From: Escherichia coli O127:H6 str. E2348/69
GTDB lineage: Bacteria; Pseudomonadota; Gammaproteobacteria; Enterobacterales; Enterobacteriaceae
DNA: 64,000 nt
Assembly (NCBI RefSeq): GCF_000026545.1
Contig: NC_011601.1
Direction: 5' to 3' (one strand)
Position numbers: made by a program
Shown: positions 17,301-26,300 of the stretch, in pieces
Layout of the letters: every line of letters begins with the position of its first letter
How positions within the stretch are numbered: position 1 is the stretch's first letter

Positions 17301-20300
17301 TGAAACCGATTGAGGTGGATGGCTCTAATGAGATGGGGCAACTGGCAGAGAGTTTGCGCCATATGCAGGGAGAGCTGATGCGTACCGTCGGTGATGTGCG
17401 CAACGGGGCCAATGCCATCTATAGCGGTGCCAGCGAAATCGCCACCGGCAATAACGATCTCTCTTCGCGCACCGAGCAACAGGCCGCTTCGCTGGAAGAG
17501 ACGGCAGCCAGCATGGAGCAACTGACCGCAACGGTGAAACAGAATGCCGAAAATGCGCGCCAGGCCAGCCATCTGGCGTTAAGTGCTTCCGAAACGGCGC
17601 AACGCGGCGGCAAAGTGGTGGATAACGTGGTGCAGACCATGCGCGATATCTCCACCAGTTCGCAGAAAATCGCCGATATTATCAGCGTAATTGACGGCAT
17701 TGCCTTCCAGACCAATATTCTGGCTTTGAACGCGGCGGTTGAGGCTGCGCGTGCGGGTGAGCAAGGGCGCGGTTTTGCGGTGGTCGCGGGAGAAGTGCGT
17801 AATCTGGCCCAGCGTAGCGCTCAGGCTGCTCGTGAAATTAAAAGCCTGATTGAAGACTCGGTGGGGAAAGTGGATGTTGGCTCTACGCTGGTCGAAAGCG
17901 CCGGGGAAACAATGGCGGAGATTGTCAGTGCCGTGACCCGCGTGACGGACATTATGGGCGAAATTGCTTCTGCTTCTGATGAGCAGAGCCGTGGTATCGA
18001 TCAGGTTGGCTTAGCGGTTGCTGAGATGGACCGGGTAACCCAACAAAACGCCGCGCTGGTGGAAGAATCTGCCGCTGCCGCCGCCGCGCTGGAAGAGCAG
18101 GCCAGTCGCCTGACCGAAGCAGTGGCAGTGTTCCGGATTCAGCAACAGCAGCAACAGCAGCGTGAAACATCGGCTGTAGTAAAAACCGTGACGCCAGCTA
18201 CGCCGCGTAAAATGGCCGTGGCAGATAGCAGCGAGAACTGGGAAACGTTTTAACGTAATGATGCCGGATGAGTATTTCATCCGGCGTTTTTATTATTAAA
18301 CCAGGAACAGTGAAATCGCCGGGATATATGTCACCAGCATTAGCATTAACAGTAGAGCCGCCAGTAGGGGCAGGGATTGTTTAAAGAAATTTCCCACCGA
18401 AACTTGCGTGATATTACATACCAGCAGCATCACGGTACCTACCGGTGGCGTGAATGCGCCAATCGACAGGTTGAAGATCATGATGATGCCAAAATGCACC
18501 GGATCGATGCCAAAGTGTTCGACCACCGGTTTTAATAGTGGTACCAGGAGCAGCAAAATGGCGTTTCCTTCCAGAAACATCCCCAGCGTCAGTAGCAATA
18601 TGTTGATAATCAACAGGAACATGTATTTGTTTTCGGTCAGCGAAGTCACAAAATTCGCCACTGCGACACCAGCATGTTCCATTGAGAAAATCCATCCCAA
18701 TGCGGCGCTGGCCATGATTACCAGCATCACCGATGCGGTTGCGCGTGCCGTTTCGCCCAATGCTTTGACGACATGAGAAATCCGCATTTCACGATAGATA
18801 AAAAAGCCAATCGCCAGCACGATTAGCACCGCTACTGCACCTGCTTCTGTTGGGGTGAAAATGTTAGCGCGAATACCACCCACCACAGCAAAAATGAGGA
18901 ACAGCGCAGGCCAGGCCTGTCCCAGCGAGAACACCACCTCTTTGCACGTAGGCCAGCTTTCACGCGAGGGTTTAGCGTTAGTTTTGCGGGCGACAAGGTA
19001 GACGGTAAACATCAGTACGACTGCGCATAGCAAACCAGGTACCAGTCCGGCGATAAACATTTTTCCGATAGAGACGTCGGCAACCAGACCGTAAATAATC
19101 AGGGCTATTCCAGGCGGTATGATCGGGGTGACTAACGAGCCACCAGCGGTAATGGCGGCGGCAAACGCGCGGTTGTAGCCTTTACGCTCCATCTCCGGCA
19201 CCATCATGCGCGACAGCATCGCCGCGTCAGCAAGGTTAGAGGCGCTGACGCCGCCCATCATGGTGCTGACGAGAATGTTTGCCACGCCCAGTCCGCCGCG
19301 CATTTTCCCCACCAGAACGTTGGCAATGTGCAGGATGCGTTCGGCAATGCCGGTGTAGCTCATTAGTGTGCCGAGCAAGATAAAAAACGGAATTGCCAGC
19401 AATGATGGGCTTTGCGTTGGCGCGATTAGTCTTTGCACGGCAATTTCAATCGGTACGCTGGAGAAGAATAAAAAGTAAGCGATGATGCCAATAAACATCG
19501 CCAGATAGACCCGAATGTTGAGAAACAAACAGACGATCATTAGCGGAATAATCAATAACCAACTCATTGCATTTTGTCTCCGCTATCGGATTGTTTTGTA
19601 TCGTTTATTAACCAGTAGAGGGTATAAATAGCCGTTGCCAGTGCGCCGACAGGGACCGCCAGATCGATCCAGAACCAGGAAACCTTCAGAATTTGTGTCA
19701 CTTTAAACTGCGCCATTTCGGCTAGTCGGTAGCCCAGCCAGGCCATATAAAGCAGCAGTGCGATGGAGAGAAGGGCGACCAGTACTGCAATAACACGCCT
19801 GAGTTTGCCTGGAAGCATCTCCATCAGGAAGGGAATGGTCAGGTGCGCCCTGTCACGTTCTGCCACCACTCCACCTAACATCACCACCCAAATCATCAGC
19901 ATTCCCGACATTTCTTCTGTCCATTGAAGCGGTTGGCCGATGAAATAACGCATAAATACCGCTCCAATTGTCACCACAACCAGAACGAATAGCGCAAAGG
20001 CAGCACTAAATTCTGCCACTTTGCCAAAAAGACGCATGAAACCTCCTGTTAGTGCGTGTCCTGCCTAAGAGAGATGAGGCAGGACGCTGAGCATTAATGC
20101 TTATTGCAGTTGCTGTTGAATGGTTTCGTACAGACCTGGTGTCCATTCCGGGAATTGAGAGTAAACTTCGCGTGCTTTCTTCTGGAATGGTCCAGTATCG
20201 GGATAGATCACTTCGACGCCGGCTGCCTGCATGGTTTTCAACATTTCGGCATCACGCTCAAGAGTGAGTTTCTGGCTATAGACACCCGCTTCATAGCCGG

Positions 20301-23300: not shown

Positions 23301-26300
23301 AAACGCGCGGCTATTTACCAGATGCGCGCAAGGCAAGAAGTCAGTGATGAAACACTGGCAAAAATAGTCAGTGAATTAGATGTGCTGGAAACGTTAATCA
23401 TGGATAGCCGATAATTTTATCGCTGCCAGTAATAGGGAATTAAATGATGGCTGAGAGTAATACTTCCAGCATCGTTTATTCCCTATGTATTTCCTTATGG
23501 GCAGAACAATCGCCTGGATTAATACTGCATTAATACAACATAGTGATATAAACCAAGAATCAATGTTTTTAATCTGTACTTAATTTATTGGTGATGTTGC
23601 CTGATGGAACGAATCATTGATTGTTTGGCGGTATCCAGATGGTTTCGCAACGCCGTTATTGCATCTAAATCGCTACGGCAAATCAGGGCGCTGAGAATGG
23701 TCATATGTTCATCAACAGCAATGATATTGCGCTGTTTGAGATCGCTTTCATCCCATTGATAGTGAAAATGAAAGATCACCGATATAATTTCAAGTGATTG
23801 ATTAAAAAAGATGTTGTCAGCAGCGGATAACAGCATGGCATGAAAATCACGGTCTAATTGAGAAAACATTCGAAAGTTGTTGCCAATGCTGTCGCGCAAT
23901 GTCCTGTGACGTTCGAGCATGGTTTTCGCCTGCAACCAGCGAGGGTCATCATCGGGAAGGTTGAGAAAGTGTTGCAGGGAATGTGTTTCGAGCATTTCGC
24001 GTAGCTCAAACAGCTGCTCGGCGTAGGATTGATCGAACTGCTTCATGCTCCATTGGCCGCGCTTTTCGCTTTGAATAAGATTATAACGACCGAATTTCAA
24101 AAGATATTCTCGTACCACTACCGGACTGACGCTTGCCGCTCGCGCCAGCTGAAGTTCGGAAAAGCTTTCTCCGGCGCGTAACTGGCGCAGGTTAATCATG
24201 GTGAAAAATGCCTGCTCGAAAAGACGGTTTTGCTCTTTCAGCGAGGCCGTGATGCAATCAAATCCATCGTTCTGTTCGGGTTTGCGGGCGATAACATAAT
24301 TTTTCCCCACCAGGGTGAGCACGCCACATGCGCTTAAATGCTGGAGTATGTGGCGTACCGTAGTGCGACTGATGTTATACATTTCTGCCAGTCCGCTTTG
24401 TGAAGGCAGCGGAGAAGGAATATTGCCCCTCGCCATATCTTCAATCACCTGATTTATGACGCTATGACGTAAATTCTGCGAACGACTCATTCTTCCCTCC
24501 AGTCCGGCATTAAAAGCCGATTTAAAACATTTTTATGCGCGATCATCCGCATATTTTATGGGTAAATTCAGGCGCTCTTATAAATTCGACGATATCTGAA
24601 AGTCATAAAATAAAAGGAGCGGTGAATCATGTCCACAATGAAAGTATTAATTTGTCAGGAAATAAAGAATTTAGTATGGGAAGTCCGGGAAAGACCGGTG
24701 CCAGGCGATAATGAAGCATTAATTAAAATTAAAACTGTCGGGATTTGCGGTACAGATATTCATGCCTGGGCGGGCAATCAGCCATTTTTCAGTTATCCAC
24801 GCGTTTTAGGCCATGAAATATGTGGGGAGATTATTGAATCAGGAAAAAACATTCACAATTTTAATATCGGACAGCAAGTTGCGGTAATTCCGTATATTTC
24901 TTGTCAGCAATGCCCGGCGTGTAAAAGCGGTCGTACCAATTGCTGTGAAAAAATTTCAGTCATTGGCGTGCATCAGGATGGCGGTTTTAGTGAGTATTTG
25001 AGCGTGCCGGTGGCGAACATTTTGCCCGCAGACGGTATTGACCCGCAGGCGGCAGCATTGATTGAACCTTTCGCTATTAGCGCTCATGCGGTGCGTCGCG
25101 CAGCCATTGCTCCCGGCGAGCAGGTGCTGGTGGTCGGGGCGGGGCCAATCGGTCTGGGCGCGGCGGCAATCGCTAAAGCCGATGGCGCACAGGTGGTGGT
25201 GGCGGATACCAGTCCGGCGCGCCGTGAACATGTAGCAACGCGTCTGGAATTACCTGTTCTGGACCCGTCAGCCGAAGATTTTGACGCGCAGCTGCGGGCG
25301 CAGTTTGGTGGTTCGCTGGCGCAGAAAGTGATTGACGCGACAGGTAATCAACATGCGATGAATAACACCGTAAATCTGATTCGTCACGGCGGCACGGTGG
25401 TATTTGTCGGCCTGTTTAAAGGTGAGTTGCAGTTCTCCGATCCGGAATTCCATAAAAAAGAAACGACGATGATGGGCAGCCGCAACGCCACGCCGGAAGA
25501 TTTCGCTAAAGTCGGTCTATTGATGGCGGAAGGGAAAATCACTGCCGACATGATGTTAACCCATCGCTATCCGTTCGCCACGCTGGCAGAAACCTACGAG
25601 CGCGATGTGATTAACAATCGTGAGTTGATTAAGGGCGTAATTACTTTCTGATAAGGCGAGATTATTCAAGTTGCCATGCAGCGTCCGGGGAAGTGTTGGG
25701 CGCTGTTTTTTTTCTGTTTCTCAATAATGTTTTGTAGGCCGGAGAAGGTGTGTAGGTCGCACCTTATGCGACCTACACATCAGTCAGGAATTACCCTTCA
25801 CGTTCTACCACTTTAATTTCCACCATGCCGATCCCGAGCTTACGCGGCGAGTGCCCGAGGATATTCCCTTCGTTGGTTGAGACAGGTTCCGGTGGCACAA
25901 TTACCAGTGTGTCGGCATCGGTTGGGTTATCGAAATGCAGTGTGGTGGTGGTCACTTCATTGCCCAGCACAAGGGTTTGTTCTTCATTGCCTACGCGTAC
26001 CGGAATAGGACGGCTGGCGTTATTGCCGTATGCTTTGGCGGTAATCACCAGGTCAAATTTCTTCGGCAGCGGATGCTTGTACTCGATTTTTACTTCATCG
26101 CCCAGCTGTGCGTTGGACCAGCGGCCCCACGACTCTGGACGAGAAATCCCGCTAAACTGTTTCACCTCTTCTGGCGCACCAGCGACGTTAAAGATGAAAC
26201 TGTCGGCTTTGTAGCGAATATCGTTATCAACAATCTTTAGCGTATCGACATTGCCTTTGTAACGCGCCATGTCGATGACCGTATCTTTAAATGCCGTTTT

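What the first reader, a model, noticed from the sequence alone, without database searches (positions are those of the whole stretch)
18296..23414. TRAP transporter operon plus CPA1 Na+/H+ exchanger in place of the MFS transporter lgoT, next to lgoR/lgoD
Between tsr and lgoR I expect the MFS L-galactonate transporter lgoT (yjjL). Instead this window has dctP-dctQ-dctM-type TRAP genes and a divergently oriented NhaP/YjcE-like exchanger, separated by about 690 bp of AT-rich DNA. TRAP systems are ion-gradient driven, so an adjacent Na+/H+ exchanger is a plausible functional pairing. Because the locus abuts the L-galactonate regulator and dehydrogenase, it may be a non-orthologous replacement of the pathway's uptake system.
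Basis: partly seen in the sequence, partly recalled or inferred. Interest (0 to 1): 0.55.

Follow-up and report, generated by a model that had tools for sequence, protein, structure and literature searches.

The report
TRAP-type allele of the L-galactonate locus
About one E. coli genome in six, including this EPEC strain, carries a binding-protein-dependent TRAP transporter plus a sodium/proton antiporter where K-12 has the L-galactonate permease lgoT; it is most likely an alternative uptake system for the same sugar acid, it is old and already seen in pangenome statistics, and it is broken by a frameshift in this strain.

Summary
The window is E. coli E2348/69. Between tsr and lgoR it has dctM-dctQ-dctP (minus strand), 690 bp of AT-rich DNA and a divergent CPA1 antiporter, where K-12 has lgoT. 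dctP has a 1-nt deletion in its signal peptide.

This is not a strain oddity. 859 of 5426 complete E. coli genomes carry the block and about 4500 carry lgoT. Beavan et al. (PNAS 2023) reported the mutual exclusion without explaining it.

The binding protein is 70% identical to PDB 4OVT and 42% to 4O8M. From memory these are L-fuconate- and L-galactonate-bound. Homologues elsewhere sit beside lgoD/uxaA/uxaB-like genes. A 21-nt box occurs upstream of K-12 lgoT, upstream of dctP here, and in the lgoR-lgoD promoter. I therefore read the TRAP system as a non-orthologous L-galactonate (possibly L-fuconate) importer.

The variant haplotype is about 6.8 kb and includes lgoR and the 5' end of lgoD. It is old: another Escherichia species has the same layout at 82-90% identity.

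The antiporter is a YjcE paralogue (58%) lying between two copies of the box. Citrobacter amalonaticus lacks it, yet close homologues also flank an unrelated TRAP operon, so Na+ recycling is plausible but unproven.

Verdict: new member of a known kind, moderate-to-low interest.

The parts
18041..18253 (+). 3' end of tsr; left edge of the divergent haplotype (92% identical to K-12, against 97-99.5% for the rest of tsr)
   Evidence: Sliding identity to K-12. The BLAST break falls exactly at 18253.
18296..19567 (-). dctM-type TRAP large permease, 423 aa, intact
   Evidence: TIGR00786 scores 400.7 bits against a cut-off of 268. Best PDB match is 7QHA_B (SiaQM large permease) at E 1.4e-79, with the hairpin motifs xPxxPP and TPPxG conserved. 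100% aa identity to strain 536.
19564..20037 (-). dctQ-type TRAP small permease, 157 aa, intact; overlaps dctM by 4 nt
   Evidence: RefSeq annotation. PF04290 DctQ is recorded on same-length orthologues in L080 and L082. There is only a weak NCBIfam hit, to YiaM.
20101..21071 (-). dctP-type binding-protein gene, inactivated in this strain by a 1-nt deletion at 21033-21034 (stop after 18 codons). The intact allele encodes 323 aa.
   Evidence: Alignment with strain 536 and sequence read. The intact allele passes TIGR00787. It matches 4ovt at E 6e-147 and 4o8m at 2e-80. The AF2 model has pLDDT 90.6 and Foldseek TM 0.95 to 4ovt. The frameshift allele is in 9 of 856 genomes.
21222..21242 (-). Conserved 'lgo box' ATTAAAAACCGATTAAAAGCA, 151-171 nt upstream of the dctP start. 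The surrounding ~190 nt (21072-21258) is homologous to the lgoT promoter region of K-12 and to the lgoR-dctP spacer of C. amalonaticus.
   Evidence: Alignment A2. Pattern search: 3 matches in 64 kb, 0.00 expected.
21243..21761 (.). AT-rich spacer (32-36% GC) upstream of the antiporter gene. It evolves fast and holds no recognisable element.
   Evidence: Composition. No Rfam match at E<=1. Only short ORFs. About 51% identity in the 21367-21728 block to the non-coli Escherichia locus L082, 91.7% between the B2 and B1 types. No homology to the spacers of L075, L078 or L076.
21762..23414 (+). CPA1 Na+/H+ antiporter, 550 aa, intact; a paralogue of K-12 YjcE (58% aa)
   Evidence: TIGR00831 scores 526.6 bits against a cut-off of 280, over the full model length. 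58% identity to YjcE. Homologue distribution.
23564..23584 (-). Second, K-12-like copy of the lgo box (ATTAAGTACAGATTAAAAACA) immediately 3' of lgoR. Together with the box at 21222-21242 it brackets the ~2.3-kb antiporter insertion.
   Evidence: Pattern search. K-12 homology resumes here. Alignment A2 shows K-12 has ATTAAGTACGGATTAAAAACA at the same place.
23585..24490 (-). lgoR, GntR/FCD-family regulator; the haplotype-specific allele (88% aa, 70-89% nt identity to K-12)
   Evidence: A distinct 90%-identity cluster, P0001, with 1069 members.
24509..24529 (+). lgo box in the divergent lgoR/lgoD promoter region. It is part of a 31-nt stretch (28 invariant columns) that is near-invariant in E. 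coli (both haplotypes), C. amalonaticus and C. freundii, while the rest of the spacer diverges.
   Evidence: Alignment A3. Pattern search.
24629..25651 (+). lgoD, L-galactonate 5-dehydrogenase. The first ~320 bp belong to the divergent haplotype (67-84% to K-12). From ~24948 onward identity is 96-100%.

Best explanation
The interval is the TRAP-type allele of the E. coli L-galactonate utilisation locus.

Proposed working, in strains with an intact copy:
1. The periplasmic protein DctP binds L-galactonate, and probably also the 6-deoxy analogue L-fuconate. It delivers the substrate to the DctQM membrane unit, which imports it using an ion gradient.
2. LgoD oxidises the imported L-galactonate to D-tagaturonate. 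UxaB and UxaA then take it to 2-keto-3-deoxygluconate.
3. The operon has its own promoter region. This region carries the same conserved box as the lgoT promoter of K-12 and the lgoR/lgoD promoter, so it is expressed as part of the lgo regulon.

The system thus does the job that the MFS proton symporter LgoT does in about 83% of E. coli genomes. The two states are alternative haplotypes of about 6.8 kb, running from the tsr 3' end to the lgoD 5' end and each with its own lgoR allele. They are exchanged by homologous recombination in the flanks.

The CPA1 antiporter gene and its AT-rich leader form a separate insertion of about 2.3 kb between lgoR and the operon's box. It may export the Na+ that enters with the substrate. 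This step is inferred only.

In E2348/69 itself a 1-nt deletion truncates DctP after 18 codons, so the transporter is predicted to be non-functional in this strain.

Shown here: anatomy, distribution, homology, conserved box, frameshift. Inferred: substrate, regulation by LgoR, ion coupling.
For: Same slot as lgoT:
- Homology with K-12 breaks exactly at the tsr stop and resumes 21 nt after the lgoR stop.

Near-partition of 5426 genomes:
- 859 carry the block and 4491-4520 carry lgoT.
- Beavan et al. report that the two never co-occur.

Substrate:
- The binding protein matches 4ovt at E 6e-147 (70% identity, TM 0.95) and 4o8m at 2e-80 (42%).
- Homologues of 62-74% identity in about 45 alpha- and betaproteobacterial loci have an LgoD-like Zn-dehydrogenase within ~4 kb, directly upstream in most.
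- In Brucella thiophenivorans L019 the cluster reads UxaB-like, GntR, UxaA-like, LgoD-like, TRAP.
- TRAP systems specific for L-fuconate and L-galactonate have been characterised (Vetting 2015, as cited in PMC5507952).
- Arg167 is invariant. By the alignment offset to SiaP it sits at or next to the position of the carboxylate-binding Arg (inference).

Regulation:
- The box matches 3 times in 64 kb, all at lgo promoters, against 0.00 expected.
- The ~190 nt upstream of dctP align with the K-12 lgoT upstream region and with the C. amalonaticus lgoR-dctP spacer.

Same locus in other species:
- C. amalonaticus has opgB-lgoD-lgoR-dctPQM-tsr.
- A non-coli Escherichia (L082) has the full layout, with TRAP genes and flanks both at 82-90%.
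- E. albertii and Klebsiella have lgoR-lgoT.

Frameshift.
Against: - No transport, binding or expression data exist for this system.
- The ligand names of 4OVT and 4O8M were cut off in the tool output and rest on my memory of the PDB titles.
- The closest solved relative is (from memory) L-fuconate-bound. The physiological substrate could therefore be L-fuconate or another L-sugar acid rather than L-galactonate.
- The protein that binds the box is unknown. In K-12 the lgo genes are listed under UxuR/ExuR control and lgoRT is treated as one operon (PMC5934670).
- The haplotype-specific lgoR allele (88% identity) could mean a shifted effector specificity.
Confidence: 0.7

Rival explanations
1. 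The antiporter is a dedicated partner of the TRAP system. DctQM co-transports Na+ with the sugar acid, and the adjacent CPA1 exchanger expels that Na+ in exchange for H+. Uptake is then effectively driven by the proton motive force. The two form one selected module.
For: - The dctP/antiporter divergent pair, with a ~690-750-bp spacer, is kept in four diverged versions at the lgo locus. These are the E. coli B2 type, the B1 type about 2% apart, L080 at 82-85% nt and L082 in another Escherichia.
- Antiporters 76-77% identical lie divergently next to an unrelated TRAP operon in Klebsiella sp. I138 and in Limnobaculum. That operon's DctP is 26-28% identical and its DctM 27%.
- The cassette moved as one piece into a Citrobacter-like backbone, at 97-99% identity.
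- DctM keeps the hairpin motifs that form the Na+ sites in SiaQM (site assignment from memory of Davies et al. 2023).
- SiaPQM is Na+-dependent (established knowledge).
Against: - C. amalonaticus has lgoR-dctPQM at the same locus without the antiporter.
- Affinibrenneria and Edaphovirga (TRAP proteins 72-92% identical; binding protein 81-84%) and all alphaproteobacterial loci have no antiporter within 10 kb.
- The 75% homologue in Edaphovirga sits in a plasmid-like context without a TRAP system.
- E. coli already has NhaA, NhaB, ChaA and YjcE.
- The genes are divergent, not co-transcribed, and the spacer is not conserved.
Confidence: 0.35
2. The antiporter is a passenger. A YjcE paralogue with its AT-rich upstream DNA was inserted by illegitimate recombination between lgoR and the dctP promoter. 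It persists by linkage and works as a general cation/pH homeostasis protein unrelated to sugar-acid uptake.
For: - The ~2.3-kb segment is bracketed by two diverged copies of the 21-nt box (17 of 21 identical), as expected for an insertion into a pre-existing lgoR-box-dctP arrangement like that of C. amalonaticus.
- The spacer is 32-36% GC and fast-evolving.
- The gene recombines with yjcE, giving the chimeras L074 and L079.
- Most TRAP homologues lack such a neighbour.
Against: A second, independent adjacency exists between the same antiporter clade and an unrelated TRAP operon. The pair has persisted for a long time across Escherichia species.
Confidence: 0.5
3. The TRAP system imports a different compound (L-fuconate only, L-gulonate or another acid sugar) and does not replace LgoT. 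TRAP-haplotype strains would then have lost L-galactonate uptake or would use another permease.
For: - The closest solved relative (70%) is, from memory, L-fuconate-bound.
- C. freundii has an enolase-superfamily dehydratase and an unrelated MFS in the same slot. The position downstream of lgoR therefore hosts transporters of possibly different specificity.
- lgoR differs by 12% between the haplotypes.
Against: - lgoD is retained intact and is 94% identical to K-12.
- The promoter box is retained.
- Distant homologues are embedded in complete LgoD-UxaB-UxaA clusters.
- The window holds no L-fuconate dehydratase or downstream L-fuconate genes next to the operon.
Confidence: 0.15

Closest known systems
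LgoT (YjjL), the MFS L-galactonate:H+ symporter of E. coli K-12
   Same: It occupies the same chromosomal slot between tsr and lgoR. It has the same neighbours, lgoR and lgoD. It has a homologous promoter-proximal region with the same box. The predicted substrate is the same.
   Different: There is no sequence relationship. LgoT is a single-polypeptide proton symporter, whereas this is a three-gene, binding-protein-dependent secondary transporter. The two haplotypes are mutually exclusive.
TRAP binding proteins Oant_3902 (PDB 4OVT) and Asuc_0158 (PDB 4O8M), and the L-fuconate/L-galactonate TRAP systems of Vetting et al. 2015
   Same: 70% and 42% identity over the whole mature protein. The predicted fold matches at TM 0.93-0.95. 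The same linkage to an LgoD-like dehydrogenase is seen.
   Different: This is an enterobacterial copy embedded in the E. coli lgo locus and paired with a CPA1 antiporter. The ligand has not been measured. The ligand names of the PDB entries are from memory.
SiaPQM, the Na+-dependent sialic acid TRAP transporter (Haemophilus, Photobacterium, Vibrio)
   Same: The tripartite architecture is the same. DctM matches SiaQM structures at E 1e-79 to 1e-68 with conserved hairpin motifs. The binding protein is 26-29% identical to SiaP.
   Different: It belongs to a different substrate clade. Q and M are separate genes, as in P. profundum and unlike the fused H. influenzae protein. Pangenome tools label these genes siaP/siaT, which is misleading.
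YiaMNO, the 2,3-diketo-L-gulonate TRAP transporter of E. coli K-12
   Same: It is the only TRAP system of K-12 and is also a sugar-acid importer.
   Different: It is distant. DctM scores 240 bits against an equivalog cut-off of 800, and DctQ scores 36 against 260. About 72% nt hits to a different TRAP permease elsewhere in lgoT-type genomes may be this system.
YjcE, the CPA1 (NhaP-type) putative Na+/H+ exchanger of E. coli K-12
   Same: Same family (TIGR00831) and same length. 58% identity, which is enough to recombine with it.
   Different: It is a distinct paralogue at another locus. The nearest non-Escherichia relatives (75-77%) are in Klebsiella sp. I138, Limnobaculum and Edaphovirga, two of them next to TRAP operons.

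Membership tests
Tripartite ATP-independent periplasmic (TRAP) transporter, DctP type | DctP-family periplasmic binding protein with an export signal | tested here: inconclusive
   The intact allele (strain 536 and 847 other genomes) passes TIGR00787 and NF037995 and starts MSKIIAMLITVSTLFLPSIIQA. In this window the gene is frameshifted at codon 13. Only a signal-less 281-283-aa ORF remains.
Tripartite ATP-independent periplasmic (TRAP) transporter, DctP type | DctM large permease | tested here: met
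   TIGR00786 scores 400.7 bits against a cut-off of 268.45, covering 400 of 405 model positions. Matches SiaQM structures at E 1e-79.
Tripartite ATP-independent periplasmic (TRAP) transporter, DctP type | DctQ small permease encoded between P and M | tested here: met
   A 157-aa ORF overlaps dctM by 4 nt. RefSeq names it 'TRAP transporter small permease'. PF04290 is on record for same-length orthologues in L080 and L082. There is only a weak NCBIfam hit.
Tripartite ATP-independent periplasmic (TRAP) transporter, DctP type | Binding-protein-dependent, ion-gradient-driven uptake | not testable with these tools
   Needs transport assays.
L-galactonate/L-fuconate-binding subgroup of DctP proteins (4OVT / 4O8M type) | Close sequence and fold similarity to a ligand-bound member | tested here: met
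   4ovt: E 6e-147, 70% identity, TM 0.95, rmsd 1.5. 4o8m: 42% identity, TM 0.93. The next hits fall to 32% identity or less.
L-galactonate/L-fuconate-binding subgroup of DctP proteins (4OVT / 4O8M type) | Genomic linkage to L-galactonate catabolic genes (lgoD, uxaA, uxaB) | tested here: met
   lgoD and lgoR lie in the same locus here. An LgoD-like gene lies next to the operon in most of the 65 related loci. The full set is present in Brucella L019.
L-galactonate/L-fuconate-binding subgroup of DctP proteins (4OVT / 4O8M type) | Measured binding of L-galactonate or L-fuconate | not testable with these tools
   Needs DSF or ITC with the purified protein. The ligand names of the PDB entries could not be read from the tool output.
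CPA1 (NhaP-type) monovalent cation:proton antiporter | Full-length match to the family model above the curated cut-off | tested here: met
   TIGR00831 a_cpa1 scores 526.6 bits against a cut-off of 279.6, over model positions 1-525 of 525. PF00999 is recorded for all homologues.
CPA1 (NhaP-type) monovalent cation:proton antiporter | Na+(K+)/H+ exchange activity | not testable with these tools
   Needs everted-vesicle assays. Even the K-12 paralogue YjcE is annotated only as a 'putative transporter'.
LgoT / ACS-family MFS L-galactonate permease | MFS protein homologous to K-12 LgoT between tsr and lgoR | tested here: not met
   No part of the window aligns to K-12 lgoT. The ORFs in the interval are the TRAP and CPA1 genes.
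Genomic island or mobile element | Integrase or transposase, tRNA attachment site, or IS-type terminal repeats | tested here: not met
   All genes in the 16-kb region are accounted for and none is a mobility gene. The block's edges lie in tsr and lgoD/lgoR coding sequence, as expected for homologous recombination. The only repeat is the 21-nt regulatory box, 17 of 21 identical.

The most novel reading that the evidence does not exclude
A specific clade of CPA1 antiporters has been recruited at least twice as a built-in Na+-recycling partner of TRAP transporters. One recruitment is with the L-galactonate-type TRAP at the Escherichia lgo locus. The other is with an unrelated TRAP operon in Klebsiella sp. 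I138 and Limnobaculum. The result would be a two-part 'Na+ circuit' that converts a Na+-coupled importer into a proton-motive-force-driven one. The lgoT/TRAP dimorphism in E. coli would then be a balanced polymorphism between a low-affinity proton symporter and a high-affinity Na+-dependent scavenging system, maintained across species boundaries.
Probability: 0.25. Interest if true: 0.55.

Novelty: new member of a known kind. Interest (0 to 1): 0.35.

Why it matters
The result gives a concrete mechanistic reading of a published pangenome 'gene avoidance' pattern. The genes lgoT and siaP/siaT/nhaK/dctM avoid each other because they are alternative alleles of one locus, predicted to import the same substrate. 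They are not antagonistic.

It corrects misleading automatic names (siaP, C4-dicarboxylate). It also predicts a phenotype difference among E. coli lineages, including B2 extra-intestinal pathogens, some Shiga-toxin-producing strains and EPEC E2348/69. The difference would lie in affinity, ion dependence and possibly L-fuconate use during growth on gut-derived sugar acids.

It offers a simple genetic system, with and without the antiporter, for testing whether TRAP transporters need a dedicated Na+ extrusion partner.

No new kind of system is implied.

Tried and rejected
- Structured RNA or a known regulatory element in the 690-bp AT-rich gap. Rfam gave nothing at E<=1. There are only short ORFs and an unremarkable number of promoter-like sites (8 against 4.7 expected). 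The spacer is not conserved between species.
- Recent import from Citrobacter amalonaticus. Rejected: its TRAP genes are only ~78% nt identical, and its LgoR is no closer to this haplotype than to K-12.
- L079 as a third independent antiporter-TRAP pairing. Rejected: it is a chimera of this locus's antiporter gene with yjcE.
- A mobile-element origin. No mobility genes are present.
- Reading the ligand names of 4OVT and 4O8M from tools or papers. PDB titles were truncated in the fold-search output. Vetting et al. 2015 is not held. Text searches for the PDB codes and locus tags gave only lists without ligands.
- Assigning the box to LgoR from the literature. Only indirect statements about UxuR/ExuR and glucuronate induction were found.

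Full report
**What is there**

The window is 100% identical to E. coli E2348/69 (EPEC O127:H6). The annotated layout is as follows:
- btsT (-)
- tsr 16589-18253 (+)
- TRAP large permease 18296-19567 (-)
- small permease 19564-20037 (-)
- binding protein 20101-21071 (-)
- a 690-bp gap at 32-36% GC
- a CPA1 Na+/H+ antiporter 21762-23414 (+)
- lgoR 23585-24490 (-)
- lgoD 24629-25651 (+)
- opgB (-)

K-12 has tsr-lgoT-lgoR-lgoD-opgB. BLAST of the window against K-12 loses homology exactly at the tsr stop codon. It regains homology 21 nt past the lgoR stop. So 5310 bp here replace 1608 bp in K-12.

The permease, binding-protein and antiporter assignments all pass curated NCBIfam cut-offs.

Compared with strain 536, the binding-protein gene has lost one C at codon 13, inside the signal peptide. 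The reading frame stops after 18 codons. RefSeq annotates only a signal-less 281-aa remnant.

**How common it is**

Among 5426 complete E. coli genomes, 859 carry the whole TRAP/antiporter block. Of the 864 best hits at 95% identity or more, 600 are at >=99% identity and 264 at about 97.5%. A further 106 hits at 60-80% are to another TRAP permease elsewhere in the genome. Between 4491 and 4520 genomes carry lgoT.

The >=99% group includes 536, UTI89, IHE3034 and F11. The 97.5% group includes O111:H11 and O145 strains.

In an O111:H11 strain the layout is identical. The block differs from the window by about 2% throughout, the same as the flanking tsr and opgB. The block is therefore not a recent spread from one lineage.

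The frameshift allele is present in only 9 of 856 genomes, all E2348/69-like.

Beavan et al. (PNAS 2023, PMC10769857) found in a 2,000-genome pangenome that lgoT 'never co-occurs' with 'siaP, siaT, nhaK' and 'dctM:siaM'. They state that it is unclear whether the two sets can complement each other. They do not mention L-galactonate, the shared locus or synteny.

**The exchanged unit is larger than the transporter**

Sliding identity to K-12 gives the following:
- 97-99.5% over most of tsr
- 92% in the last 200 bp of tsr
- 67-89% through the whole of lgoR, the lgoR-lgoD spacer and the first ~320 bp of lgoD
- 96-100% from about 24948 onward

LgoR is only 88% identical in protein to K-12 LgoR, and LgoD is 94% identical. 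The two states are therefore alternative haplotypes of about 6.8 kb, each with its own regulator allele.

**What the TRAP system probably carries**

The intact binding protein matches PDB 4ovt (Ochrobactrum anthropi Oant_3902) at E 6e-147 and 4o8m (Actinobacillus succinogenes) at 2e-80. All other solved TRAP binding proteins score 1e-44 or worse. An AlphaFold model (pLDDT 90.6) superposes on 4ovt at TM 0.95 with 70% identity, and on 4o8m at TM 0.93 with 42% identity.

The tool output cut the entry titles before the ligand. From my memory of the PDB titles, 4OVT is L-fuconate-bound and 4O8M is L-galactonate-bound. Both come from the screen of Vetting et al. 2015. A held paper confirms that this study characterised a TRAP transporter with dual L-fuconate/L-galactonate specificity in an lgoD-uxaA-uxaB locus (PMC5507952).

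Independent of those names, the genomic context points the same way. A scan of one genome per species found 65 loci encoding relatives. In about 45 alpha- and betaproteobacterial loci with 62-74% identical binding proteins, an LgoD-like zinc dehydrogenase lies within about 4 kb of the operon, directly upstream in most. In Brucella thiophenivorans the cluster reads tagaturonate-reductase-like, GntR regulator, altronate/galactarate-dehydratase-like, LgoD-like, TRAP PQM. That is the complete L-galactonate route.

**Regulatory continuity**

The ~190 nt upstream of dctP align with three other regions (alignment A2):
- the region upstream of K-12 lgoT
- the lgoR-dctP spacer of Citrobacter amalonaticus
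- the region downstream of lgoR in C. freundii

All share a box of the form ATTAAAAnCnGATTAAAAnCA. A near-identical box lies in the lgoR/lgoD divergent promoter. There it sits within a 31-nt stretch that is near-invariant (28 invariant columns) across four sequences whose surrounding spacer has diverged (alignment A3).

In the 64-kb window the pattern matches three times, against 0.00 expected. The matches are at 21222-21242 (upstream of dctP), 23564-23584 (just after lgoR) and 24509-24529 (upstream of lgoD).

I infer that dctPQM is expressed under the same control as lgoD. Which protein binds the box is not established. The K-12 literature treats lgoRT as an operon induced by glucuronate and lists it under UxuR/ExuR (PMC5934670).

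**The antiporter**

The antiporter is 58% identical to K-12 YjcE. Its gene and the AT-rich leader (about 21243-23563) lie between two diverged copies of the box. The lgoR-proximal copy resembles the K-12 copy. The dctP-proximal copy continues into the conserved promoter region.

C. amalonaticus has opgB-lgoD-lgoR-dctPQM-tsr-btsT with no antiporter. The antiporter segment therefore looks like a secondary insertion into an lgoR-box-dctPQM arrangement.

Evidence for a functional link:
- The pair is preserved in a version diverged to 82-85% nt (L080).
- It is preserved in a non-coli Escherichia whose TRAP genes and flanks are both 82-90% identical to the window (L082).
- It moved as one 97-99% identical piece into a Citrobacter-like backbone, with a crossover inside lgoR (L070).
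- Antiporters 76-77% identical lie divergently, about 700-750 bp away, from an unrelated TRAP operon in Klebsiella sp. I138 and in Limnobaculum. That operon's DctP is 26-28% identical and its DctM 27%.

Evidence against:
- The 75% homologue in Edaphovirga has no TRAP neighbour.
- None of the other TRAP homologues has an antiporter within 10 kb.
- The spacer is not conserved.

DctM retains the proline-rich hairpin motifs of Na+-coupled SiaQM. Such motifs are general to the family. Na+ recycling is plausible, at about one chance in three.

**Polarity**

LgoT orthologues (72-92%) are widespread in Enterobacterales, including Klebsiella, Kluyvera, Rahnella, Serratia, Pantoea and E. albertii. In E. 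albertii and Klebsiella, lgoT lies directly after lgoR. C. freundii has yet another content in the slot, an enolase-superfamily dehydratase plus an unrelated MFS.

The position downstream of lgoR is thus a recurrent site of transporter exchange. LgoT is the commoner and probably older state. The TRAP state is also old within Escherichia. Neither 'recent replacement in this strain' nor 'common ancestral state' describes it well. It is a long-standing dimorphism reshuffled by homologous recombination. This fits the high gain/loss counts of Beavan et al..

**Verdict**

The finding is real and its main interpretation holds: a non-orthologous alternative to lgoT in the L-galactonate locus. The components are known kinds, and the presence/absence pattern is published. 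In this strain the system is inactivated.

What appears to be new in the literature I could search has four parts:
- the same-locus, same-substrate explanation of the avoidance pattern
- the shared promoter box
- the haplotype-specific lgoR allele
- the separable antiporter insertion

I rate it a new member of a known kind, with an interest score of 0.35.

Noticed in passing
window 7911-7915 (junction); K-12 L069 7288-8847: The multidrug/bile-salt efflux gene mdtM (and ytiE) is precisely absent from this strain. Window sequence joins K-12 positions 7287 and 8848 with a 5-nt overlap. This lies about 10 kb from the lgo locus here. It probably explains, by linkage, why Beavan et al. found that mdtM predicts lgoT.
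   Followed up: partly
window 8983-12841: The K-12 yjiR-mcrBC-hsd-mrr 'immigration control' region is largely replaced. Only short K-12 fragments align (8983-9633 and 9691-10139). Positions 10140-12841 have no K-12 counterpart. The content was not examined.
   Followed up: no
L074 8001-9653; L079 1133-2782: Two public contigs carry chimeric antiporter genes formed by recombination between yjcE and the lgo-locus paralogue. L074 reads ghxP-[yjcE 5'::paralogue 3', crossover near nt 900]-lgoR-lgoD-opgB. L079 reads dctP-[paralogue 5'::yjcE 3', crossover near nt 450]-LysR-lrgAB-actP-yjcH. The two genes are about 310 kb apart in K-12 coordinates. These are therefore large rearrangement junctions or assembly artefacts.
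   Followed up: partly
L008 5034-12794 (E. albertii); also L010 (E. whittamii) and L007: A second TRAP system, with a binding protein 72-73% identical, lies next to gltA-sdhA. Its neighbours are a GntR regulator, an RraA-like protein, a Zn-dehydrogenase, an SDR and a UxaA-like dehydratase. It looks like a separate sugar-acid catabolic island of unknown substrate.
   Followed up: partly
L072 5382-11882 (Citrobacter freundii): At the same locus C. freundii has a uxaB-like Mannitol_dh gene between opgB and lgoD. Downstream of lgoR it has an enolase-superfamily (MR_MLE) dehydratase plus an MFS only 23% identical to LgoT. This is a third content for the transporter slot.
   Followed up: partly
L075 3169-9650 (Klebsiella sp. 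I138); L078 1064-7433 (Limnobaculum): A cassette reading GntR, DctM (493 aa), DctQ (177 aa), DctP (353 aa), then a divergent CPA1 antiporter. The antiporter is 76-77% identical to the window's, but the TRAP genes are unrelated (26-28% identity). The substrate is unknown.
   Followed up: partly
L083 7325-8301 (E. albertii): In this E. albertii genome lgoT is present, but tsr is missing between lgoT and btsT. Only a 43-aa ORF is called there.
   Followed up: no
L081 1-4211 (E. coli O111:H11): In this TRAP-haplotype strain the hpa (4-hydroxyphenylacetate) operon lies directly upstream of tsr, where the window has btsT. The left flank of the locus is therefore also variable.
   Followed up: no
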